A stretch of DNA of 19,777 bases from a virus (Duplodnaviria > Heunggongvirae > Uroviricota > Caudoviricetes). Under the pieces are notes generated by a model. That model searched no databases and was not told the DNA's origin. It was given only the letters and a program-made list of their open reading frames with translations. This document shows positions 1 to 19,564 of this stretch, one piece after another. Numbering within the stretch: position 1 is the stretch's first letter; each line of letters begins with the position of its first letter. The DNA lies in IMG/VR virus record IMGVR_UViG_2850808358_000001. One strand, 5' to 3'. Made by a program: the position numbers and the translations under genes.

Positions 1-303
1 ATGAGCAGAAAAACCCAACGTTACTCTAAAGAGTTCAAAGCCGAAGCTGTCAGAACGGTTCTTGAAAATCAACTTTCGATCAGTGAAGGCGCTTCCCGAT
101 TATCCCTTCCTGAAGGCACTTTAGGACAATGGGTTACCGCCGCCAGAAAAGGGCTCGGTACTCCTGGTTCCCGCACGGTGGCTGAACTGGAATCTGAAAT
201 TCTGCAACTGCGTAAGGCGTTAAATGAAGCTCGCCTTGAGCGAGATATATTAAAAAAAGCAACAGCGTATTTTGCACAGGAGTCGCTGAAAAATACGCGT
301 TAA
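1..303 (+). CDS. IS3-family transposase OrfA (HTH DNA-binding part)
   Basis: 100-aa [23 protein letters not shown]...; typical IS3 OrfA with HTH and leucine-zipper-like C-terminus; A7G slippery run at 252..259 near its 3' end. Confidence 0.9.
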   Translation: MSRKTQRYSKEFKAEAVRTVLENQLSISEGASRLSLPEGTLGQWVTAARKGLGTPGSRTVAELESEILQLRKALNEARLERDILKKATAYFAQESLKNTR

Positions 304-338
304 TCGAACAATGGCGACAACAATTTCCCATTGAAGCG

Positions 339-1157
339 ATGTGTCAGGTATTTGGTGTATCCAGGAGCGGTTATTACAACCGGGTACAGCATGAACCCTC
401 AGACAGAAAACAAAGTGATGAGCGGCTAAAACTGGAGATTAAGGTGGCACATATCCGCACTCGCGAAACATATGGAACCCGGCGGCTCCAGACGGAGCTG
501 GCAGAGAATGGCATCATCGTTGGTCGTGACCGACTGGCACGTCTTCGTAAGGAGCTAAGGCTACGCTGTAAGCAGAAACGCAAGTTCAGAGCGACTACGA
601 ACCCGAACCACAATCTGCCAGTTGCGCCAAATCTGCTGAACCAGACGTTCGCTCCTACAGCACCAAATCAGGTCTGGGTGGCGGACCTGACGTATGTTGC
701 CACACAGGAGGGATGGTTGTACCTCGCTGGCATCAAAGATGTTTATACGTGCGAAATTGTCGGCTACGCCATGGGAGAGCGCATGACAAAAGAGCTGACA
801 GGTAAAGCCCTGTTTATGGCGCTCAGGAGCCAGCGCCCACCTGCCGGGCTAATCCACCACTCTGATCGAGGTTCACAGTACTGCGCATACGATTACCGGG
901 TCATACAGGAGCAGTTTGGTCTGAAAACATCAATGTCGCGTAAAGGTAACTGTTACGACAACGCTCCGATGGAAAGCTTCTGGGGAACGCTGAAAAATGA
1001 GAGCCTGAGCCACTATCGTTTTAATAACCGGGATGAAGCCATCTCAGTAATACGGGAATACATTGAGATTTTCTACAATCGTCAGCGTCGTCACTCTCGT
1101 CTGGGGAATATCTCCCCGGCAGCCTTCAGGGAAAAATATCATCAGATGGCTGCTTAA
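339..1157 (+). CDS. IS3-family transposase OrfB (DDE catalytic domain), probably made as an OrfAB fusion by -1 frameshift
   Basis: 272-aa ORF; the -1 frame is open from the A7G motif (252..259) into this ORF; the ...HHSDRGSQY...YDNAPMESFWGTLK... region fits a DDE integrase-type core. Confidence 0.9.
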   Translation: MCQVFGVSRSGYYNRVQHEPSDRKQSDERLKLEIKVAHIRTRETYGTRRLQTELAENGIIVGRDRLARLRKELRLRCKQKRKFRATTNPNHNLPVAPNLLNQTFAPTAPNQVWVADLTYVATQEGWLYLAGIKDVYTCEIVGYAMGERMTKELTGKALFMALRSQRPPAGLIHHSDRGSQYCAYDYRVIQEQFGLKTSMSRKGNCYDNAPMESFWGTLKNESLSHYRFNNRDEAISVIREYIEIFYNRQRRHSRLGNISPAAFREKYHQMAA

Positions 1158-1200
1158 AAAAAGAACAAATGGTAGTGTCCGCTATTGCCAGTACACCTCA

Positions 1201-1320
1201 AAGTGCAAGCTGGTTCTTTAGTTTTGTTACTTCTTCAAGTTCAGTGAACACCCCGGACTTAATTAAAGCGTTACGAGCGATTGTCTCTTTCATTCTCGTT
1301 GTTAAGCGGATTGATGACAT
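1201..1320 (-). pseudogene. 5' portion of a hypothetical phage gene, 3'-truncated by IS600 copy 1
   Basis: ATG at 1320..1318 preceded by GAGAGG SD; reading frame MSSIRLTTRMKETIARNALIKSGVF... runs straight into the IS terminus, which supplies the stop codon. Confidence 0.4.
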
Positions 1321-1499
1321 ATTAATTCCTCTCAAATAAGTGGTTTGCTGCCTGATTTCATTTTCTGGCGACCAACACAAGTCACCCCCATTTCACTGCG
1401 TGGCTTGCGGTAGTAAAGATTGTGCCTGTCTTTTAACCACATCAGGCTCGGTGGTTCCTTCACTTTCCACAGTCAAAGGAAAGGAAGGTTCAGCGGCTG

Positions 1500-1918: not shown

Positions 1919-2302
1919 TTACCTCGCTGTCAGTTGTTTTGATTTCCGGTAGCCTGCCGCGTAAATGGCTACGTTTGGAAGACATACACCAGTTTCTGGT
2001 TGCTTATGTCCAAACTCATTCGCGTACACAATGGCCGCTCGCTCCAGATTGCGTCTGTATTCTTTCTGTTGCCAGATCACGTCCTGTGCCATGAACTTAA
2101 TTGGCTTAGCGTCTTCTATGCGCTCAGGCGTTTCGTGAGTACCTTTAGCCTGAATCTGCGCTCTGCTTAGAGTAGGGCGGTGTAATACTTCTGAACTTAT
2201 TGCTTCTTCGCGGGCCAGCACGCCGTTAGCTAATGCCTTTGCCTTTAAACGCTCACGACGACGAGAACGTGAATTGCCTTTGAACTGAGTTCTGCGTGTC
2301 AT
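1919..2302 (-). CDS. N: N-like transcription antitermination protein (P22 gp24 type)
   Basis: Arg-rich N-terminus (MTRRTQFKGNSRSRRRERLK) resembling an arginine-rich RNA-binding motif; C-terminus ...IYAAGYRKSKQLTAR resembles P22 gene 24 protein as I recall it; AGGAGG SD 6 nt upstream; nutL boxB sits 165 nt upstream. Confidence 0.7.
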   Translation of the reverse strand: MTRRTQFKGNSRSRRRERLKAKALANGVLAREEAISSEVLHRPTLSRAQIQAKGTHETPERIEDAKPIKFMAQDVIWQQKEYRRNLERAAIVYANEFGHKQPETGVCLPNVAIYAAGYRKSKQLTAR

Positions 2303-2482: not shown

Positions 2483-2553
2483 CGTAGATTCATATTCGAA
2501 TCGTTGTATATTCACCGCCCTGGTGAGTAGTGCGTCCTGCTGATGGCTTAAAG

Positions 2554-2640
2554 ATAACCTAGGTTATAGCGGCGGTCAATAACTTAATTTATGGATTCTG
2601 ATAAATAAGTTATAAGTGATGGATAATAAAGGTATTTTAT
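2554..2640. promoter_or_regulatory. OL operator cluster / pL promoter region
   Basis: Palindrome ATAACCTAGGTTAT (2554..2567) plus related ATAA-rich repeats; same ATAAC-N4-GTTAT architecture as the OR sites at 4929..4991. Confidence 0.5.
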
Positions 2641-2751: not shown

Positions 2752-2790
2752 GGCAAAGAAAACCCGGCGCGGAAGCCGGGTTTGAGATTT
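2752..2790. terminator. bidirectional intrinsic terminator-like hairpin
   Basis: CCCGGC-GCGGAA-GCCGGG hairpin (2763..2780) flanked by A-run on one side and TTTGAGATTT on the other; follows the stop of the 44-aa ORF on the - strand. Confidence 0.5.
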
Positions 2791-2798
2791 AGTTATTT

Positions 2799-2933
2799 TC
2801 AGCAGCTCGGATAAGAGCGGAAGTGCTGACGAACATGTTCGAGCTCACCGAAACGTATGCGGCAGTAACTGCGCACATAAACCGGCTTGTCGTGTTCGTA
2901 GATGAAGTCATCGCGATTAACATCGTGAGCCAT
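2799..2933 (-). CDS. small hypothetical protein (44 aa, His/Cys-containing)
   Basis: Not in the ORF track (below 60 aa); ATG 2933 with AGGAGA SD 6 nt upstream; translation MAHDVNRDDFIYEHDKPVYVRSYCRIRFGELEHVRQHFRSYPSC; followed by a terminator. Confidence 0.45.
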   Translation of the reverse strand: MAHDVNRDDFIYEHDKPVYVRSYCRIRFGELEHVRQHFRSYPSC

Positions 2934-3082
2934 AGCTTTTCTCCTGTTTTTGTATACAGCCTGTTTACCCGAACAGGTTGTAGTTTGTTGGGAGAACCGC
3001 TATCCTTGGCTTGCGGTTGCCAAGGGTGTAGCGGTAGGTAATCCTCCATACACTTCGGAAATACTGGATATATTTCCGACCC

Positions 3083-3117
3083 AAAAAGCCCCGTTCCCTC
3101 GGGGCTTTATTCTTTTG
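3083..3117. terminator. bidirectional rho-independent terminator
   Basis: GCCCCG-TTCCCT-CGGGGC hairpin (3088..3105) flanked by AAAAA upstream and TTTATTCTTTTG downstream; abuts the stop codon (3107) of the 177-aa gene. Confidence 0.6.
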
Positions 3118-3640
3118 TTCCGCCATCAATCATCGCAAAAGATTCCACAATCAGACTGATACGCTTGGCTTCATCTTTTGTCAGGTCGCGAGGCAGGTTG
3201 CCAATGGTGACGATAAGATCTCCGCGCAATGGAATCGGCAGTTCAAATGTTTTTACACCAACCTGTACGTCAGCTACCGCCTTCTTCTTAGGTGCCATCT
3301 TTTTACGCTCCTTTTTTTTATTTACATCACCAACTGACACATTAATCTCACCATTCTGGTAGGAGATAAATTTATCAATAGCACTTTGCATTCGGCTTTT
3401 GTATGCCTGCAAAGATGATTCAGAGGGTTTGCTTTCTGCTGAGTCTGCGTACGAACTTGCTAAGTTGGCAACGCTATAATCACGGATATCGGCATCGGTG
3501 AAATCCGACCCAAGAACAGTAAGAAGGCGCAGGGAAGAGTCACGGAGATTGCGGGCTGTAGCATCATTGACGATACCAAGCTCAGGAAGCATCTGTAAGA
3601 AGTCCTGAAATGCTTTGATGGTGTAGCTTTTGGTTTGCAT
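3107..3640 (-). CDS. hypothetical protein (177 aa) in the cI-linked accessory slot
   Basis: ORF MQTKSYTIKAFQDFLQMLPELGIV...; two segments separated by a Lys-rich linker (KKKERKKMAPKKKA); no family recognised. Confidence 0.6.
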   Translation of the reverse strand: MQTKSYTIKAFQDFLQMLPELGIVNDATARNLRDSSLRLLTVLGSDFTDADIRDYSVANLASSYADSAESKPSESSLQAYKSRMQSAIDKFISYQNGEINVSVGDVNKKKERKKMAPKKKAVADVQVGVKTFELPIPLRGDLIVTIGNLPRDLTKDEAKRISLIVESFAMIDGGTKE

Positions 3641-3667
3641 AAAAAAGCCTCATACAGTTGATGAGGC
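3641..3667 (-). terminator. hairpin plus U-tract immediately upstream of the 177-aa gene; the 3' arm contains its SD
   Basis: Minus strand GCCTCAT-CAACTGT-ATGAGGC followed by TTTTTT and then ATG (3640); the GAGG in the 3' arm is the only SD-like sequence for this gene. Confidence 0.4.
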
Positions 3668-3829
3668 AATACTAATTTGATCGTCAAAACAAATCAAGAC
3701 CCAAGAAACGATCGTTGATTCCTTTCTTTGTGACAATACAGTCAAATCAAGTTTTACAAGGATTACTTTTCTTCGATTACATTAAAGGCCGCACTTCTGC
3801 GACCATCCATCACCAAAATGTCTCTTCAC

Positions 3830-4171
3830 TCATCCGAAGAAGCAGCAATCCGGGTCAGCACGCACAAGCTCAAGCGCATCAGTCAGCGAAAGTTCAGTAC
3901 TGTACTGATGCCATTTCATATCCTTCCGCATCCAATAGATTTTCCATCTATCCAGAGAACGTATGTACTTGATTCTTGCTGATGGCAGGATGTTTGTTTC
4001 ACCTGGGTTGCCCTGCCACACGGGGCGCTGTTCGCCGATATCTATCGTTTGGTCATTGATGCTATAAACAATATCCAGTTCATTGCGGATATGTTCAGGC
4101 GGCCTTATGCTTTCAATGAATTGGTGAACTTCTTTTTTGACCGCTTGATATTCAAGGTCAGTGAACGCCAT
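3830..4171 (-). CDS. hypothetical protein (113 aa) immediately downstream of cI
   Basis: ORF MAFTDLEYQAVKKEVHQFIESIRPPEH...; starts 38 bp after the cI stop on the same strand, so probably co-transcribed with cI; followed by an imperfect hairpin (3788..3805). Confidence 0.6.
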   Translation of the reverse strand: MAFTDLEYQAVKKEVHQFIESIRPPEHIRNELDIVYSINDQTIDIGEQRPVWQGNPGETNILPSARIKYIRSLDRWKIYWMRKDMKWHQYSTELSLTDALELVRADPDCCFFG

Positions 4172-4208
4172 CTATCCTCCTCACCCAAACGTTTCTTCAG
4201 GCCACTGG

Positions 4209-4916
4209 TTACCAGCTATGCGATGACCAGAATACTCTGCCAATAATCCTTACGGTTTTATGAAATTCATCTCTATCCATTACTTCATCCGGGTACTCTT
4301 CGCGATTTATTGATCTGATTATCACCGATGTAGGAGTGGCGATTAATGTTTTTACTCGCAACAAATCAGACTGGCAAATAGCGTAGGTTTTACCATCTCT
4401 GATGGTGGTATCTTGTGTGTTAACACCAACAACATCGCCATCGTGAAGAGTTGGTTCCATGCTTTGACCTGTTACCCTTACCAGCTTGGCAGAACTTTCA
4501 GTTACCCCCATCTTTTTCAGATAGTACTTTCTGAAAACCAAAGAGAACTCTGATGATTCTTCTATCTCGCAGCTACCGCTTCCAGCCGAAAGCGAAACGT
4601 TAAGAAGAGGCAATGCGACAAACTCGTCATCGTTTTTTTTAATGTCTTCCCATACCACAGCTTTTAAAGATGACTCACGGATATTGGATGGTTCTTCATG
4701 TGTACCATCCCTCATTTCACCAATACCAGAACTAAGCCATTCAGGGCGTACTTTTAAAGCATTAGCTAACTCAACCATCTTGCGAGATCCGTTTGTTTTA
4801 CCGGATGACATCTTCTGTATGGCTGGCTGAGATATTCCAACCATGTCCGCAAGCTGTGATTGCGACACCCCTGCCGATCTCATGGCTGCATTTAGTCTTT
4901 CTGCGAATGTTTTCAT
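4209..4916 (-). CDS. cI: CI-like prophage repressor (HTH plus S24 LexA-like autopeptidase domain)
   Basis: HTH (QSQLADMVGISQPAIQKM), Ala-Gly cleavage site (LSAGSG), Ser nucleophile motif GQSMEPT and downstream Lys; ATG at 4916 with no SD (leaderless-type start); the ORF track begins earlier at a TTG inside the operator. Confidence 0.85.
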   Translation of the reverse strand: MKTFAERLNAAMRSAGVSQSQLADMVGISQPAIQKMSSGKTNGSRKMVELANALKVRPEWLSSGIGEMRDGTHEEPSNIRESSLKAVVWEDIKKNDDEFVALPLLNVSLSAGSGSCEIEESSEFSLVFRKYYLKKMGVTESSAKLVRVTGQSMEPTLHDGDVVGVNTQDTTIRDGKTYAICQSDLLRVKTLIATPTSVIIRSINREEYPDEVMDRDEFHKTVRIIGRVFWSSHSW

Positions 4917-4927
4917 ATCCACAAATC

Positions 4928-5004
4928 TATAACTACGGTTATCCAAAGTAAAATAATAAAGGTTATTGCTATCTTTTATAACTTGGGTTATCCTTGGTTA
5001 TAAG
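4928..5004. promoter_or_regulatory. OR operator cluster with divergent pRM/pR promoters
   Basis: Palindromes ATAACTACGGTTAT (4929..4942) and ATAACTTGGGTTAT (4979..4991) plus related half-sites between divergent cI and cro. Confidence 0.6.
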
Positions 5005-10196: not shown

Positions 10197-10292
10197 ATGC
10201 ATTCAAGGCCTGTAGTTGACGACAACACATATCCGGGGCTATATTCCTCATACGCCAGCAAAATCTGGCGTCGGGATTGAGACCCCGGATGT

Positions 10293-10749
10293 TTACGGAG
10301 CGATATGAGACGCGCCCGCGTCTTTTTTCATATCGTTTGCACAGTCACATTCGCGATTTATGGTGGGCTGTGTGGGGGAGCCGAAACCGATAACCATTTC
10401 TTTGTTGAAGAGACAAAGCGAGCAGGCCAGTCCGATCGCGGTCCAACTGAGCCCCATTTCACGGGATTTTTCGGTAATACCATTCTCCCGATTGCTCCAG
10501 CGTTCCATAATCCAGTGGATCCACTCCTCCTGCTTAGGGAAGAGTAAAAACGGAATGGTCACCGGCAGGCCATAATCAATATTACGCGGGTCCGTTGTCA
10601 TGCCCCAGCCGATAATGAACTGAGCCGGGTTGGTACGGTAAAACTGTTTTAGTGCAGGCAATATTTCAGGATTCTGGCGAATGCGCTGTAGGCGTTCCAT
10701 CCGCCATTCAAAAACCATCTGGTAATCAGGATGTTTAAAATCGAAGGGT
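10293..10749 (-). pseudogene. large terminase subunit, N-terminal ATPase portion only; split by IS600 and 3'-truncated
   Basis: Frame ...[15 protein letters not shown]...[20 protein letters not shown]... resembles the N-terminal ATPase region of P22-like TerL; continuous in frame with the 6 codons at 12014..12030 across IS600 copy 2; stops after ~150 aa where a full TerL would be ~450-500 aa. Confidence 0.65.
10308..10328 (+). terminator. intrinsic terminator-like hairpin with T5 tract on the + strand
   Basis: AGACGCG..CGCGTCT stem followed by TTTTT; lies inside the 3' end of the truncated terL reading frame, suggesting foreign junction sequence. Confidence 0.45.
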
Positions 10750-10813: not shown

Positions 10814-11116
10814 ATGAGCAGAAAAACCCAACGTTACTCTAAAGAGTTCAAAGCCGAAGCTGTCAGAACGGTTCTTGAAAATCAACTTTCGATCAGTGAA
10901 GGCGCTTCCCGATTATCCCTTCCTGAAGGCACTTTAGGACAATGGGTTACCGCCGCCAGAAAAGGGCTCGGTACTCCTGGTTCCCGCACGGTGGCTGAAC
11001 TGGAATCTGAAATTCTGCAACTGCGTAAGGCGTTAAATGAAGCTCGCCTTGAGCGAGATATATTAAAAAAAGCAACAGCGTATTTTGCACAGGAGTCGCT
11101 GAAAAATACGCGTTAA
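10814..11116 (+). CDS. IS3-family transposase OrfA
   Basis: Identical protein to copy 1 OrfA. Confidence 0.9.
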
Positions 11117-11151
11117 TCGAACAATGGCGACAACAATTTCCCATTGAAGCG

Positions 11152-11970
11152 ATGTGTCAGGTATTTGGTGTATCCAGGAGCGGTTATTACAACTGGGTAC
11201 AGCATGAACCCTCAGACAGAAAACAAAGTGATGAGCGGCTAAAACTGGAGATTAAGGTGGCACATATCCGCACTCGCGAAACATATGGAACCCGGCGGCT
11301 CCAGACGGAGCTGGCAGAGAATGGCATCATCGTTGGTCGTGACCGACTGGCACGTCTTCGTAAGGAGCTAAGGCTACGCTGTAAGCAGAAACGCAAGTTC
11401 AGAGCGACTACGAACCCGAACCACAATCTGCCAGTTGCGCCAAATCTGCTGAACCAGACGTTCGCTCCTACAGCACCAAATCAGGTCTGGGTGGCGGACC
11501 TGACGTATGTTGCCACACAGGAGGGATGGTTGTACCTCGCTGGCATCAAAGATGTTTATACGTGCGAAATTGTCGGCTACGCCATGGGAGAGCGCATGAC
11601 AAAAGAGCTGACAGGTAAAGCCCTGTTTATGGCGCTCAGGAGCCAGCGCCCACCTGCCGGGCTAATCCACCACTCTGATCGAGGTTCACAGTACTGCGCA
11701 TACGATTACCGGGTCATACAGGAGCAGTTTGGTCTGAAAACATCAATGTCGCGTAAAGGTAACTGTTACGACAACGCTCCGATGGAAAGCTTCTGGGGAA
11801 CGCTGAAAAATGAGAGCCTGAGCCACTATCGTTTTAATAACCGGGATGAAGCCATCTCAGTAATACGGGAATACATTGAGATTTTCTACAATCGTCAGCG
11901 TCGTCACTCTCGTCTGGGGAATATCTCCCCGGCAGCCTTCAGGGAAAAATATCATCAGATGGCTGCTTAA
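11152..11970 (+). CDS. IS3-family transposase OrfB (DDE domain)
   Basis: Identical to copy 1 OrfB except R14W (c to t at 11194). Confidence 0.9.
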   Translation: MCQVFGVSRSGYYNWVQHEPSDRKQSDERLKLEIKVAHIRTRETYGTRRLQTELAENGIIVGRDRLARLRKELRLRCKQKRKFRATTNPNHNLPVAPNLLNQTFAPTAPNQVWVADLTYVATQEGWLYLAGIKDVYTCEIVGYAMGERMTKELTGKALFMALRSQRPPAGLIHHSDRGSQYCAYDYRVIQEQFGLKTSMSRKGNCYDNAPMESFWGTLKNESLSHYRFNNRDEAISVIREYIEIFYNRQRRHSRLGNISPAAFREKYHQMAA

Positions 11971-14937: not shown

Positions 14938-15013
14938 TGGTGCTGGTTAACGGACTTGAACCGCTACCCATTCGCTTACAAGGCGACTGCTCTACCATTA
15001 GAGCTAAACCAGC
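14938..15013 (-). tRNA. phage-encoded tRNA, anticodon read as UGU (tRNA-Thr), CCA encoded
   Basis: Manual fold of the minus strand: acceptor GCUGGUU/AACCAGC, D-arm GCUC/GAGC with GG loop, anticodon loop CUUGUAA, T-arm with UUCAAGU loop, 3' ACCA; one non-WC pair at the top of the anticodon stem. Confidence 0.6.
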
Positions 15014-15018
15014 ATATT

Positions 15019-15093
15019 TGGCGGGACAGCGTGGACTCGAACCACGATAAGAAGGTTAACAGCCTTCCGTAATGACCTTTATACGACTGACCC
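15019..15093 (-). tRNA. phage-encoded tRNA, anticodon read as GUU (tRNA-Asn), CCA encoded; may be degenerate
   Basis: Manual fold: T-arm CGUGG-UUCGAGU-CCACG perfect, anticodon stem GAAGG/CCUUC perfect with loop CUGUUAA; acceptor and D stems each carry one mismatch. Confidence 0.5.
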
Positions 15094-18409: not shown

Positions 18410-18712
18410 ATGAGCAGAAAAACCCAACGTTACTCTAAAGAGTTCAAAGCCGAAGCTGTCAGAACGGTTCTTGAAAATCAACTTTCGATCAGTGAAGGCG
18501 CTTCCCGATTATCCCTTCCTGAAGGCACTTTAGGACAATGGGTTACCGCCGCCAGAAAAGGGCTCGGTACTCCTGGTTCCCGCACGGTGGCTGAACTGGA
18601 ATCTGAAATTCTGCAACTGCGTAAGGCGTTAAATGAAGCTCGCCTTGAGCGAGATATATTAAAAAAAGCAACAGCGTATTTTGCACAGGAGTCGCTGAAA
18701 AATACGCGTTAA
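18410..18712 (+). CDS. IS3-family transposase OrfA
   Basis: Identical protein to copies 1 and 2. Confidence 0.9.
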   Translation: MSRKTQRYSKEFKAEAVRTVLENQLSISEGASRLSLPEGTLGQWVTAARKGLGTPGSRTVAELESEILQLRKALNEARLERDILKKATAYFAQESLKNTR

Positions 18713-18747
18713 TCGAACAATGGCGACAACAATTTCCCATTGAAGCG

Positions 18748-19564
18748 ATGTGTCAGGTATTTGGTGTATCCAGGAGCGGTTATTACAACCGGGTACAGCA
18801 TGAACCCTCAGACAGAAAACAAAGTGATGAGCGGCTAAAACTGGAGATTAAGGTGGCACATATCCGCACTCGCGAAACATATGGAACCCGGCGGCTCCAG
18901 ACGGAGCTGGCAGAGAATGGCATCATCGTTGGTCGTGACCGACTGGCACGTCTTCGTAAGGAGCTAAGGCTACGCTGTAAGCAGAAACGCAAGTTCAGAG
19001 CGACTACGAACCCGAACCACAATCTGCCAGTTGCGCCAAATCTGCTGAACCAGACGTTCGCTCCTACAGCACCAAATCAGGTCTGGGTGGCGGACCTGAC
19101 GTATGTTGCCACACAGGAGGGATGGTTGTACCTCGCTGGCATCAAAGATGTTTATACGTGCGAAATTGTCGGCTACGCCATGGGAGAGCGCATGACAAAA
19201 GAGCTGACAGGTAAAGCTCTGTTTATGGCGCTCAGGAGCCAGCGCCCACCTGCCGGGCTAATCCACCACTCTGATCGAGGTTCACAGTACTGCGCATACG
19301 ATTACCGGGTCATACAGGAGCAGTTTGGTCTGAAAACATCAATGTCGCGTAAAGGTAACTGTTACGACAACGCTCCGATGGAAAGCTTCTGGGAACGCTG
19401 AAAAATGAGAGCCTGAGCCACTATCGTTTTAATAACCGGGATGAAGCCATCTCAGTAATACGGGAATACATTGAGATTTTCTACAATCGTCAGCGTCGTC
19501 ACTCTCGTCTGGGGAATATCTCCCCGGCAGCCTTCAGGGAAAAATATCATCAGATGGCTGCTTA
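18748..19564 (+). pseudogene. IS3-family transposase OrfB inactivated by frameshift
   Basis: G-run is GGG at 19391..19393 where copies 1 and 2 have GGGG; the ORF stops prematurely at 19401 (217 aa instead of 272). Confidence 0.8.

What the first reader, a model, noticed from the sequence alone, without database searches (positions are those of the whole stretch)
2799..4171. Uncharacterised three-gene, lysogen-side cassette in the rexAB-equivalent slot between cI and OL/pL
Between the cI stop (4209) and the OL/pL operators (2554..2640) lie three - strand ORFs: 113 aa (3830..4171), 177 aa with a Lys-rich linker (3107..3640) and 44 aa (2799..2933). The first starts 38 bp after cI and is probably co-transcribed from pRM; each is followed by a hairpin or terminator. 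In lambda this slot holds rexA/rexB, and in other lambdoid prophages it is a known hotspot for superinfection-exclusion and anti-phage genes expressed in the lysogen. I cannot place any of the three proteins in a family I know, so this is the best candidate here for an undescribed exclusion or defense module.
Basis: partly seen in the sequence, partly recalled or inferred. Interest (0 to 1): 0.72.

Follow-up and report, generated by a model that had tools for sequence, protein, structure and literature searches.

The report
Two accessory modules behind prophage repressor
The stretch between the repressor gene and the leftward operators of this defective Shiga-toxin-phage-like prophage holds three real, conserved genes of unknown function. 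They form two independent mobile modules rather than one cassette, in a slot where related phages carry proven anti-phage genes, and no function has been tested.

Summary
Three intact minus-strand genes lie between cI (4209..4916) and OL/pL (2551..2592), and each is followed by a hairpin.

- **Gene A (3830..4171)** is Pfam DUF3024 and the untested PADLOC candidate PDC-S43. In 76 of 80 viral loci it sits directly behind an S24-type cI, across at least 12 repressor types, with variable genes after it: Stk, a ParA-like protein, B+C or others.
- **Genes B (3107..3640) and C (2799..2933)** form a separate unit that also occurs without A or cI.
  - It has its own predicted promoter.
  - B has a variable N-terminal domain with the fold of a tyrosine-recombinase core-binding domain, a basic linker and a near-invariant 41-residue tail.
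  - A conserved, structured leader of about 140 nt can hide C's ribosome-binding site.
  - C is a 44-residue protein under strong purifying selection.

The slot is a known hotspot: rexAB in lambda, bstA, and stk in 933W. A role in conflict between phages is therefore the best guess, at about 40-45%, and it is untested. Distant relatives of both A and B lie in ordinary chromosomal settings, which keeps non-defence roles open.

No paper in the searched library mentions DUF3024, and PDC-S43 appears only as a tally in one genome survey. I made no literature search for B or C.

The parts
4929..4991 (.). OR: three operator sites matching ATAAC-N4-GTTAT (4929-4942, 4953-4966, 4978-4991)
   Evidence: 5 matches in the window against 0.45 expected. 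The other two are OL.
4209..4916 (-). cI repressor (HTH_3 + Peptidase_S24). The likely start is ATG 4916, not the TTG 4946 listed by the ORF tool.
   Evidence: RefSeq annotates 235 aa in a 99.9% identical genome. TTG 4946 lies inside an OR site.
3830..4171 (-). Gene A: 113-aa DUF3024 protein (PADLOC candidate PDC-S43, phrog_3467), orthologue of 933W L0084. It starts 37 nt after cI behind a GAGGAGG Shine-Dalgarno sequence.
   Evidence: AF2 model with pLDDT 90.9.
3787..3804 (-). Hairpin GGTCGCAGAAGTGCGGCC after A, here followed by a weak T tract (TTTAATG). It is a conserved junction element.
   Evidence: One search shows the same stem followed by T6-8 in VT2-Sakai, Oslo and L120, and by no T run in 933W.
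3669..3697 (-). Predicted sigma-70 promoter of B (P_B): -35 TTGATT (3697-3692), 17-nt spacer, -10 TAGTAT (3674-3669)
   Evidence: One search shows the -35 and spacing conserved in the Salmonella and Yersinia homologues. The Salmonella version (TTGATT-17-TATTAT) passes the consensus scan. The window version scores 8 of 12 and was not called.
3647..3667 (-). Hairpin GCCTCAT...ATGAGGC followed by T6, directly before B's ATG. Its 3' arm contains B's Shine-Dalgarno sequence (GAGG). It begins 2 nt after the -10 of P_B.
3107..3640 (-). Gene B: 177-aa protein (phrog_2602; 39% identical to VT2-Sakai Sap23). Residues 1-95 form a four-helix core-binding-like domain, 100-135 a disordered basic linker, and 130-170 a near-invariant tail.
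3085..3108 (-). Hairpin AAAGCCCCG...CGGGGCTTT after B. It can form on either strand.
2940..3083 (-). Conserved structured RNA leader between B and C. It has a hairpin, a long-range helix enclosing a second hairpin, and a hairpin before C's Shine-Dalgarno sequence.
   Evidence: MFE -55 kcal/mol, z = -5.56.
2799..2933 (-). Gene C: 44-aa protein (phrog_21154), Shine-Dalgarno AGGAG 8 nt upstream
   Evidence: dN/dS about 0.05-0.1.
2762..2781 (-). Terminator hairpin ACCCGGC-N6-GCCGGGT followed by TTTTCTTT after C
   Evidence: Read from the sequence. Conserved in all B+C loci and retained in Y. pseudotuberculosis loci that lack C. Detected by the scan in the Salmonella copy.
2551..2592 (-). OL operators (2554-2567, 2579-2592) and a pL-like promoter (TTGACC-17-TATCTT, 2579->2551)
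1919..2302 (-). N antiterminator, the left boundary of the slot

Best explanation
The interval is the accessory ('moron') slot of a lambdoid, Stx-phage-like prophage. It holds two independent modules.

**Module 1: gene A**
- A is a small alpha/beta DUF3024 protein with no detectable catalytic domain.
- It is most likely transcribed with cI from pRM in the lysogen.
- In this enterobacterial phage clade it is the constant first gene behind cI, and exchangeable genes follow it.

**Module 2: a self-contained unit**
- It consists of predicted promoter P_B, B, a leaky hairpin, a structured leader of about 140 nt, C and a terminator.
- A hairpin followed by a U tract sits directly before B's AUG and contains B's Shine-Dalgarno sequence. 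It should stop or silence read-through from pRM. Transcripts that start at P_B would begin inside the hairpin's 5' arm and so escape it.
- B probably binds DNA through a variable domain resembling a recombinase core-binding domain. It probably contacts a conserved partner through its invariant C-terminal tail.
- Translation of C is gated by a leader in which one anti-Shine-Dalgarno segment can pair either with an upstream mimic or with C's Shine-Dalgarno sequence.

**Most likely role**
- The role I favour is conflict between phages, meaning superinfection exclusion or abortive infection. In that reading B is the specificity component and C is a tightly silenced effector or co-factor.

**Shown here**
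- Gene reality, gene positions, the modularity of A versus B+C, the predicted folds and the conserved RNA architecture.

**Inferred**
- The promoters and transcript structure, DNA binding by B, and any defence function. I put the defence function at about 40-45%.
For: **Modularity**
- A lies directly 3' of S24 repressors of at least 12 sequence types in 76 of 80 viral loci, at gaps of 9, 37, 60 or 66 nt.
- The genes after A vary: L0083+Stk+L0081 (29 loci), B+C (17), Sakai-type B (2), a ParA-like protein (3), a 162-aa + 206-aa pair (12) and others.
- B+C occurs without A in several settings: Salmonella prophage ends next to dinI, and cfPICI-like satellites between the replication and capsid genes, where the small ORF is a different one.
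- B also occurs without C: Yersinia lambdoid prophages directly after cI or after bstA, and Yersinia phage YP3 next to gin.

**Hotspot**
- Stk matches PADLOC PD-T4-6 and mad6, and the Yersinia neighbour matches BstA.
- Literature on the slot: rexAB, bstA and the cI-N mosaic hotspot (PMC8585504); stk co-transcribed with cI and excluding HK97 (PMC3564112).
- A matches PADLOC candidate PDC-S43 at 7e-42. PDC families were derived from genes embedded in BREX, DISARM and type I RM loci and are untested.

**Gene B**
- AF2 gives a four-helix N-domain with pLDDT about 90.
- Some homologues give sub-threshold hits to the Phage_int_SAM Pfam families.
- N-domain identity falls to 20-29% while the 41-residue tail stays 80-98% identical.
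- TTGAT/ATCAA occurs 5 times upstream of B against 0.69 expected.

**Gene C and the leader**
- C is 86-100% conserved where B is only 44% identical. Its dN/dS is about 0.05-0.1.
- Twelve sequence variants of the leader fold independently into the same helices with different stem sequences.
- The covariance model finds the leader in 35 loci at 92-139 bits.
- 76.5% of cells are paired against 29-49% for slid controls, and the covariation score is 0.130 against 0.081 in shuffles (0 of 500 reach it).
- The window leader folds with z = -5.56, with C's Shine-Dalgarno sequence paired.

**Promoter and hairpin before B**
- The arrangement is conserved in the window, Salmonella and Yersinia versions.
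Against: - No phenotype, expression or binding data exist for any of the three genes.
- B and C match no PADLOC model.
- Distant B-family members are single chromosomal genes in housekeeping neighbourhoods, twice right after cobS-cobT. The family has 1126 representatives in the deep search. That fits a general DNA-binding or regulatory protein better than a dedicated defence gene.
- Among 80 distant A relatives from many phyla, only 1 of 72 upstream neighbours is an S24 repressor, and the neighbours are heterogeneous.
- P_B in the window scores 8 of 12 and was not called by the consensus scan.
- In the covariation test, the count of pairs with changes on both sides was not above the shuffles: 11 against 10.1.
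- B's C-terminal tail is poorly modelled, with pLDDT 50-72.
- The prophage in the window is decayed by IS600 insertions.
Confidence: 0.45

Rival explanations
1. B+C is a regulatory module rather than a defence system. B would be a DNA-binding transcription factor or nucleoid-associated protein with a DNA-binding head and a partner-contacting tail. It would regulate itself and control genes of the element or the host. C would be a small co-regulator.
For: - Distant family members are single chromosomal genes in housekeeping contexts, with repeated cobS-cobT synteny.
- The N-domain has a core-binding-domain fold.
- The tail motif is conserved across the family members aligned from the deep search, which suggests a universal partner.
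- TTGAT/ATCAA repeats and palindromes overlap B's own promoter in several lineages.
- In cfPICI-like satellites the module sits just before the capsid operon, with a zinc-ribbon protein in place of C.
Against: - The mobile versions occupy classic moron or defence positions in four unrelated kinds of element.
- The N-domain diverges to 20-29% identity while the tail is frozen, a pattern typical of arms-race specificity domains.
- Heavy translational silencing of both B and C is unusual for a simple regulator.
Confidence: 0.3
2. A is an accessory of the repressor switch, like 434 Hex, PsiB or DinI. It would tune RecA-dependent cI cleavage or counter antirepressors, so it would set the induction frequency rather than block other phages.
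For: - A is strictly adjacent to S24-type repressors in 76 of 80 viral loci, across at least 12 repressor types and down to 37% A identity.
- 434 Hex is a precedent: it is co-transcribed from pRM and blocks RecA-mediated autocleavage (PMC3564112).
Against: - The PsiB match is weak (5% identity, rank 16) and the alpha-beta sandwich fold is generic.
- A also occurs without cI, next to a ParA-like gene.
- In 80 relatives from many phyla only 1 of 72 upstream neighbours is an S24 protein.
- PADLOC lists the family as a defence candidate (PDC-S43). The PDC set as a whole was built from genes embedded in defence loci, where no repressor need be nearby. I could not retrieve the specific origin of PDC-S43.
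Confidence: 0.15
3. One reading: one three-gene operon transcribed from pRM that works as a single exclusion system.
For: - All three genes are on the same strand, between cI and OL, with no gene on the other strand.
- A and B co-occur with two very different B alleles, the window type and the Sakai type.
Against: - A and B+C are inherited independently.
- Two terminator-like hairpins and a conserved promoter lie between A and B.
- In VT2-Sakai-type phages A is frameshifted while B is intact.
Confidence: 0.05
4. The genes are inert leftovers of a decaying prophage and have no current function.
For: The window carries three IS600 copies. One of them truncates the gene downstream of N.
Against: - All three ORFs are intact. 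They are 95-100% identical at the protein level to those in the Stx1 phage record SH2026Stx1.
- C is under strong purifying selection.
- The regulatory hairpins show compensatory changes.
Confidence: 0.05

Closest known systems
Phage 933W / Stx2 phage 86 immunity-region operon: cI - L0084 - L0083 - stk - L0081 - tM
   Same: It has the same slot and the same first gene: L0084 is 98% identical to A. It is expressed on the lysogen side from pRM according to PMC3564112.
   Different: Here B+C replaces L0083, the Stk kinase and L0081. The hairpin after A carries a short T tract here and none in 933W.
Lambda rexA/rexB
   Same: It occupies the same position between cI and OL/pL. It is an accessory, lysogen-expressed abortive-infection system (PMC8585504).
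   Different: A, B and C gave no Rex match in the PADLOC scan: A matched only PDC-S43, and B and C matched nothing. Nothing here suggests an ion-channel partner like RexB.
BstA (Salmonella BTP1 and relatives)
   Same: It is encoded directly downstream of cI. It has two domains, an N-terminal DNA-binding-type domain and a second domain. In Yersinia, BstA and a B homologue share one slot.
   Different: B has no KilA-N or BstA_C domain. No aba-like self-immunity element was identified.
PADLOC phage defence candidate PDC-S43 / Pfam DUF3024
   Same: A matches both models over its full length.
   Different: PDC families are untested predictions from guilt by embedding. The tight coupling to cI seen here is not a property of the wider family.
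Core-binding (SAM-like) domain of tyrosine recombinases (lambda Int, XerC/D, IntI)
   Different: B has no catalytic domain. It is only 177 aa and gives no Phage_integrase hit. In its place it has a basic linker and a unique conserved tail.
434 Hex
   Same: It is a small accessory protein on the pRM-cI transcript.
   Different: Hex is reported to overlap the repressor ORF; I did not compare its sequence with A. A's wider family is not linked to repressors.
Type I toxin mRNAs with long structured 5' leaders (hok, tisB, zorO; from my own knowledge)
   Same: C is a very small ORF behind a long, conserved leader that sequesters its Shine-Dalgarno sequence.
   Different: C is hydrophilic and is not a membrane peptide. 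No antisense RNA promoter was found by the simple scans.

Membership tests
Pfam DUF3024 (PF11225) | The profile HMM match exceeds the gathering score. | tested here: met
   Gene A scores 108.7 bits against a cut-off of 24.9, E = 2.4e-31, covering residues 4-113 of 113.
PADLOC PDC-S43 | The protein matches the candidate's HMM. | tested here: met
   E = 7.2e-42, covering 1-113 of a 115-position model.
PADLOC PDC-S43 | Anti-phage activity has been demonstrated. | not testable with these tools
   The source paper calls all 145 PDC systems untested. The searched library lists PDC-S43 only as a tally in one O157 survey.
Lambda RexAB | The proteins are homologous to RexA and RexB. | tested here: not met
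   In the PADLOC scan A matched only PDC-S43, and B and C matched nothing at E <= 1, so there was no Rex match. Pfam gave no Rex match either.
BstA | The protein has a KilA-N-like N-domain and a BstA C-domain. | tested here: not met
   A, B and C gave no such hits. The Yersinia neighbour did match BstA, which serves as a positive control.
Tyrosine recombinase | The protein has an N-terminal core-binding (SAM-like) four-helix domain. | tested here: met
Tyrosine recombinase | The protein has the C-terminal catalytic domain with the RHR-Y active site. | tested here: not met
   B is 177 aa. It gives no Phage_integrase hit, and residues 100-177 are a disordered linker plus a short strand-helix tail.
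Stk / PD-T4-6 kinase defence | A protein kinase domain gene lies in the slot. | tested here: not met
   The kinase is present in 933W and phage 86 and absent from the window.
Type I toxin-antitoxin (for C) | A small ORF is silenced by a structured 5' leader. | tested here: met
   The leader architecture is conserved. C's Shine-Dalgarno sequence is paired in the MFE structure, z = -5.56.
Type I toxin-antitoxin (for C) | The toxin is a hydrophobic membrane peptide and there is an antisense sRNA. | tested here: not met
   C's sequence is rich in charged residues and has no hydrophobic stretch. The consensus scans found no convincing antisense promoter. The scans are crude, so the antisense half of this test is inconclusive.
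Single pRM operon (rex-like cassette) | The genes are inherited together and share one transcript. | tested here: not met
   A and B+C are distributed independently. Internal hairpins and a promoter separate them. The transcripts themselves cannot be tested with these tools.

The most novel reading that the evidence does not exclude
B-leader-C is an undescribed two-protein conflict system carried by lambdoid and P2/Mu-like prophages and by capsid-forming satellites.

- A catalytically dead protein resembling a recombinase core-binding domain, with a fast-evolving head and an invariant tail, would sense foreign DNA.
- With a 44-residue protein kept silent by a dedicated RNA switch, it would abort or exclude the infection.
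- Separately, DUF3024 would be a genuine single-gene anti-phage factor that this clade of enterobacterial temperate phages has fixed as the first gene of the repressor operon.
Probability: 0.2. Interest if true: 0.8.

Novelty: new variant of a known kind. Interest (0 to 1): 0.55.

Why it matters
**Why the genes matter**
- The cI-N slot of lambdoid phages is where rexAB, bstA and stk were found, so its other occupants are good leads for new functions in conflict between phages.
- These genes sit in Shiga-toxin phages of O157-type E. coli and in Shigella-like genomes. A is present in 229 of 5426 complete E. coli genomes. Any effect on superinfection or on induction would therefore bear on the spread and expression of the toxin phages.

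**Three concrete, testable objects**
- A DUF3024 protein tied to the repressor operon across at least 12 immunity types.
- A widespread protein family with no Pfam model, combining a recombinase-type DNA-binding head with an invariant tail.
- A conserved RNA leader that appears to switch translation of a 44-residue protein.

**Practical outcome**
- The analysis shows that the three genes should be cloned and tested as two units, not one.

Tried and rejected
**Sequence searches that found nothing useful**
- NCBIfam gave no family for A, B or C.
- Sequence search of the PDB gave only chance-level hits for A, for B and for the B profile.
- Rfam gave nothing in the region at gathering scores, and only chance-level hits at E <= 10.

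**Fold searches**
- The afdb50 library was not available.

**Literature**
- No paper mentions DUF3024.
- PDC-S43 appears only as a tally in one survey. The supplements held for the PADLOC preprint mention neither PDC-S43 nor DUF3024.
- Tyler et al. 2004 is not held in the library.
- The lysogeny transcriptomics review has nothing on 933W or Sp5.

- Locus searches with the most divergent B alignments failed because no stretch was conserved enough.
- Cluster look-up of distant B relatives gave almost no names. One source calls a member 'XerC'.

**Ideas considered and rejected**
- A LexA box upstream of B: CTGT-N8-AAAG is not a match.
- An FNR-type TTGAT-N4-ATCAA site: the spacing is wrong.
- The C-terminal tail of B as an AbrB-like or RHH fold: there is no support.
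- C as a zinc-binding protein: the Cys residues are not conserved in the Sakai-type homologue.
- An obligate A-B partnership: their independent distribution rules it out.
Full report
**1. What is in the sequence**

The window is a lambdoid prophage of the Stx-phage (Traversvirus) type, riddled with IS600. On the minus strand the order is as follows.
- OR: three ATAAC-N4-GTTAT sites at 4929-4991.
- cI: 4209..4916, with HTH_3 and Peptidase_S24 domains.
- A: 3830..4171.
- B: 3107..3640.
- C: 2799..2933.
- OL: two sites at 2554-2592, with a pL-like promoter at 2579->2551.
- N: 1919..2302.

These assignments rest. The operator motif occurs 5 times against 0.45 expected. The ORF tool's TTG start for cI (4946) lies inside OR. 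ATG 4916 matches the 235-aa RefSeq call in a 99.9% identical genome.

**2. The ORFs are real genes**

- Each matches a PHROG family end to end.
- The cassette is 95% identical in Stx1 phage SH2026Stx1 (gp19-21). It is 99.3-99.9% identical in six complete E. coli genomes.
- C has dN/dS of about 0.05-0.1 against its homologues, and 26 of 38 variable sites are at third codon positions.

**3. Gene A**

*Family and fold*
- A is Pfam DUF3024 (108.7 bits) and PADLOC PDC-S43 (7e-42).
- PDC families are 145 untested candidates derived from genes embedded in BREX, DISARM, type I RM and Hma loci.
- No paper in the searched library mentions DUF3024.
- The AF2 model is confident, with pLDDT 90.9. It shows a helix, a five-stranded antiparallel sheet and a second helix.

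*Position*
- In 80 IMG/VR loci, 76 have an S24-type repressor ORF directly upstream on the same strand. The gaps are mostly 9, 37, 60 or 66 nt.
- These repressors fall into at least 12 sequence clusters, several with no detectable similarity to each other.
- The same holds for 933W (L0084), phage 86 (gp61), Salmonella SE1 (gp24) and a Morganella phage whose A is only 33% identical.
- The genes after A vary:
  - L0083+Stk+L0081 in 29 loci;
  - B+C in 17;
  - Sakai-type B in 2;
  - a ParA-like ATPase in 3;
  - a 162-aa + 206-aa pair in 12;
  - nothing at all in the Morganella phage.
- In 933W, stk is reported to be co-transcribed with cI, so that transcript must cross L0084 (PMC3564112; annotation).

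*The coupling to cI is specific to this clade*
- A scan of species-representative genomes found 217 relatives across many phyla.
- In the best 80 (36-60% identity), only 1 of 72 upstream neighbours is an S24 protein.
- The neighbours are heterogeneous. They include Fic, YoeB, AbiEii, HicB, PIN and WapI proteins, transposases and ordinary metabolic genes.
- A also occurs without cI next to a ParA-like gene.

**4. Genes B and C form their own unit**

*Gene B*
- B has no Pfam, NCBIfam or PADLOC match.
- The AF2 model shows a confident four-helix N-domain (residues 1-95), a disordered basic linker and a poorly modelled tail.
- A full HMM search finds 1126 cluster representatives with the same architecture. 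They share the tail motif F/Y-x-(L)P-I-P-L-R...L-P-x-D-L-T-x-x-E-A.
- Within Enterobacterales, N-domain identity drops to 20-29% while the 41-residue tail stays 80-98% identical.

*Where B homologues occur*

| Setting |
|---|
| cI-N slot of VT2-Sakai (Sap23, 39% identical) |
| cI-N slot of Salmonella phage Oslo |
| cI-N slot of Y. pseudotuberculosis prophages, once behind bstA |
| Next to gin in Yersinia phage YP3 |
| Behind dinI at the end of Salmonella prophages near pepN |
| Between replication and capsid genes of cfPICI-like Enterobacter satellites |

- Far relatives are single chromosomal genes, twice just after cobS-cobT.

*Gene C travels with B*
- C is 86-100% conserved even where B is only 44% identical.
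- VT2-Sakai and Oslo carry a diverged C homologue on the same strand. It is unannotated in VT2-Sakai, where the record instead annotates an ORF on the opposite strand.
- The satellites carry a different small Cys-rich ORF in the same place.
- The Y. pseudotuberculosis loci lack C but keep the terminator.

**5. Signals**

*After A*
- The hairpin GGTCGCAGARRTGCGGCC follows A. Here it is followed by TTTAATG. In 933W there is no T run, which is compatible with read-through to stk. In Sakai, Oslo and L120 it is followed by T6-8.

*Upstream of B*
- A promoter-like element is conserved in three lineages:
  - window: TTGATT-17-TAGTAT;
  - Salmonella: TTGATT-17-TATTAT, which passes the consensus scan;
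  - Yersinia: TTGATT-17-TACCAT.
- The -10 element abuts a hairpin followed by a U tract. The hairpin's 3' arm holds B's Shine-Dalgarno sequence (3667..3647).
- I infer that read-through from pRM is terminated or left untranslatable. Transcripts from P_B would start inside the 5' arm and escape.
- TTGAT/ATCAA occurs five times in 3641-3829 against 0.69 expected (P about 6e-4). This may be an operator array.

*Between B and C*
- Twelve distinct sequence variants fold independently into the same set of helices with different stem sequences.
- A covariance model finds the element in 35 loci at 92-139 bits. It does not find it in Sakai-type, Oslo or Y. pseudotuberculosis loci.
- 76.5% of cells are paired against 29-49% with slid partners. 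The covariation score is 0.130 against 0.081 +/- 0.008 in shuffles, and none of 500 shuffles reaches it.
- The number of pairs with changes on both sides is not above the shuffles, at 11 against 10.1, so the support is good but not conclusive.
- G-U pairs place the RNA on the B/C strand.
- The window copy folds at -55 kcal/mol, z = -5.56. In that fold UUCUCC pairs with C's Shine-Dalgarno sequence GGAGAA.
- The same UUCUCC can instead pair with an upstream GGAGGA.
- In the other sequence types all three segments change together (GGUAAAC / GUUUACC / GGUAA; read). That is what a translational switch would show.

**6. Interpretation**

*What the evidence establishes*
- There are two independent accessory modules in a known hotspot.

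*Arguments for a role in conflict between phages*
- The hotspot's record: rexAB, bstA and stk/PD-T4-6.
- A's independent listing as a defence candidate.
- The occurrence of B+C at moron positions in four kinds of mobile element.
- B's fast-evolving head on a frozen tail.
- The unusually tight silencing of both B and C.

*Arguments against*
- There are no functional data.
- B and C match no defence model.
- Distant relatives of A and B lie in ordinary chromosomal contexts.

*Weights*

| Reading | Weight |
|---|---|
| Defence or exclusion | 40-45% |
| B+C as a regulatory DNA-binding module | about 30% |
| A as a Hex-like accessory of the repressor switch | about 15% |
| Inert leftovers of a decaying prophage | about 5% |

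**7. Novelty and score**

- The genes have been in databases as 'hypothetical' since 933W and VT2-Sakai were sequenced.
- A is already flagged as an untested candidate.
- The following are not described in anything I could find:
  - the modular anatomy;
  - the rule that couples cI and DUF3024;
  - the core-binding-like fold and head/tail asymmetry of B;
  - the B-C linkage;
  - the RNA leader.
- I rate the finding a new variant of a known kind, namely hotspot accessory modules of temperate phages.
- Interest is 0.55. It is a good, well-defined experimental lead and not yet a discovery.

Noticed in passing
window 2940-3083 (-): A conserved, structured RNA of about 140 nt lies between B and C. 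Helix sequences co-vary across 12 variants, and an apparent three-way switch (mimic / anti-SD / SD) controls C's ribosome-binding site. It has no Rfam match.
   Followed up: partly
window 3647-3697 (-): A promoter-like element abuts a terminator-like hairpin that contains B's Shine-Dalgarno sequence, so the predicted transcript start falls inside the 5' arm. This could insulate B from pRM read-through. The arrangement is conserved in the Salmonella and Yersinia copies.
   Followed up: partly
window 3658-3750: Five TTGAT/ATCAA pentamers lie within about 95 nt upstream of B, against 0.69 expected. Related palindromes containing CTTGA overlap the -35 region in other B lineages. These may be operator sites.
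   Followed up: partly
window 4916-4946: The mechanical ORF start of cI (TTG 4946) overlaps an OR operator (4929-4942). The likely start is ATG 4916, giving 235 aa.
   Followed up: yes
window 1-1157, 10814-11970, 18410-19401: There are three IS600 (IS3-family) copies. The first sits just beyond a 60-aa fragment (1198-1380, minus strand). That fragment matches the N-terminus of a 227-aa ORF found downstream of N in a related viral locus (L017), so the pL operon is truncated and the prophage is defective.
   Followed up: partly
window 10252-10328 (+); 14941-15093 (-): Rfam calls an isrK-type Hfq-binding sRNA (70.6 bits) and two tRNA genes. The tRNAs are on the minus strand. The late region was not examined.
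   Followed up: no
L010 (VT2-Sakai NC_000902), locus 3000-4300: VT2-Sakai-type phages carry a frameshifted DUF3024 remnant between cI and Sap23. They also carry an unannotated 40-aa C homologue on the Sap23 strand, where the record annotates Sap22 on the opposite strand. Sap22 is probably a mis-call.
   Followed up: partly
L007-L009, L121-L127 (Enterobacter satellites), about 6650-6790 in L007: In cfPICI-like satellites the B homologue and the same RNA leader are followed by a different 44-aa Cys-rich ORF (MANGICPKCGNACEV...CNC). It gives a weak treble-clef zinc-finger hit and takes the place of C.
   Followed up: partly
L013 (Salmonella phage SE1) 3481-4554; L083 1729-2784: A ParA-like AAA_31 ATPase follows DUF3024 both behind cI (SE1) and in a context without cI (L083-85). 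It may be a second recurring partner of A. It matches PADLOC PDC-M28B weakly.
   Followed up: no
L129 6001-6564; L135 6001-6543: Distant B-family genes sit just downstream of bolA, a dnaJ-like gene, cobS and cobT in two unrelated metagenomic contigs. This suggests a conserved chromosomal role for the wider family.
   Followed up: no
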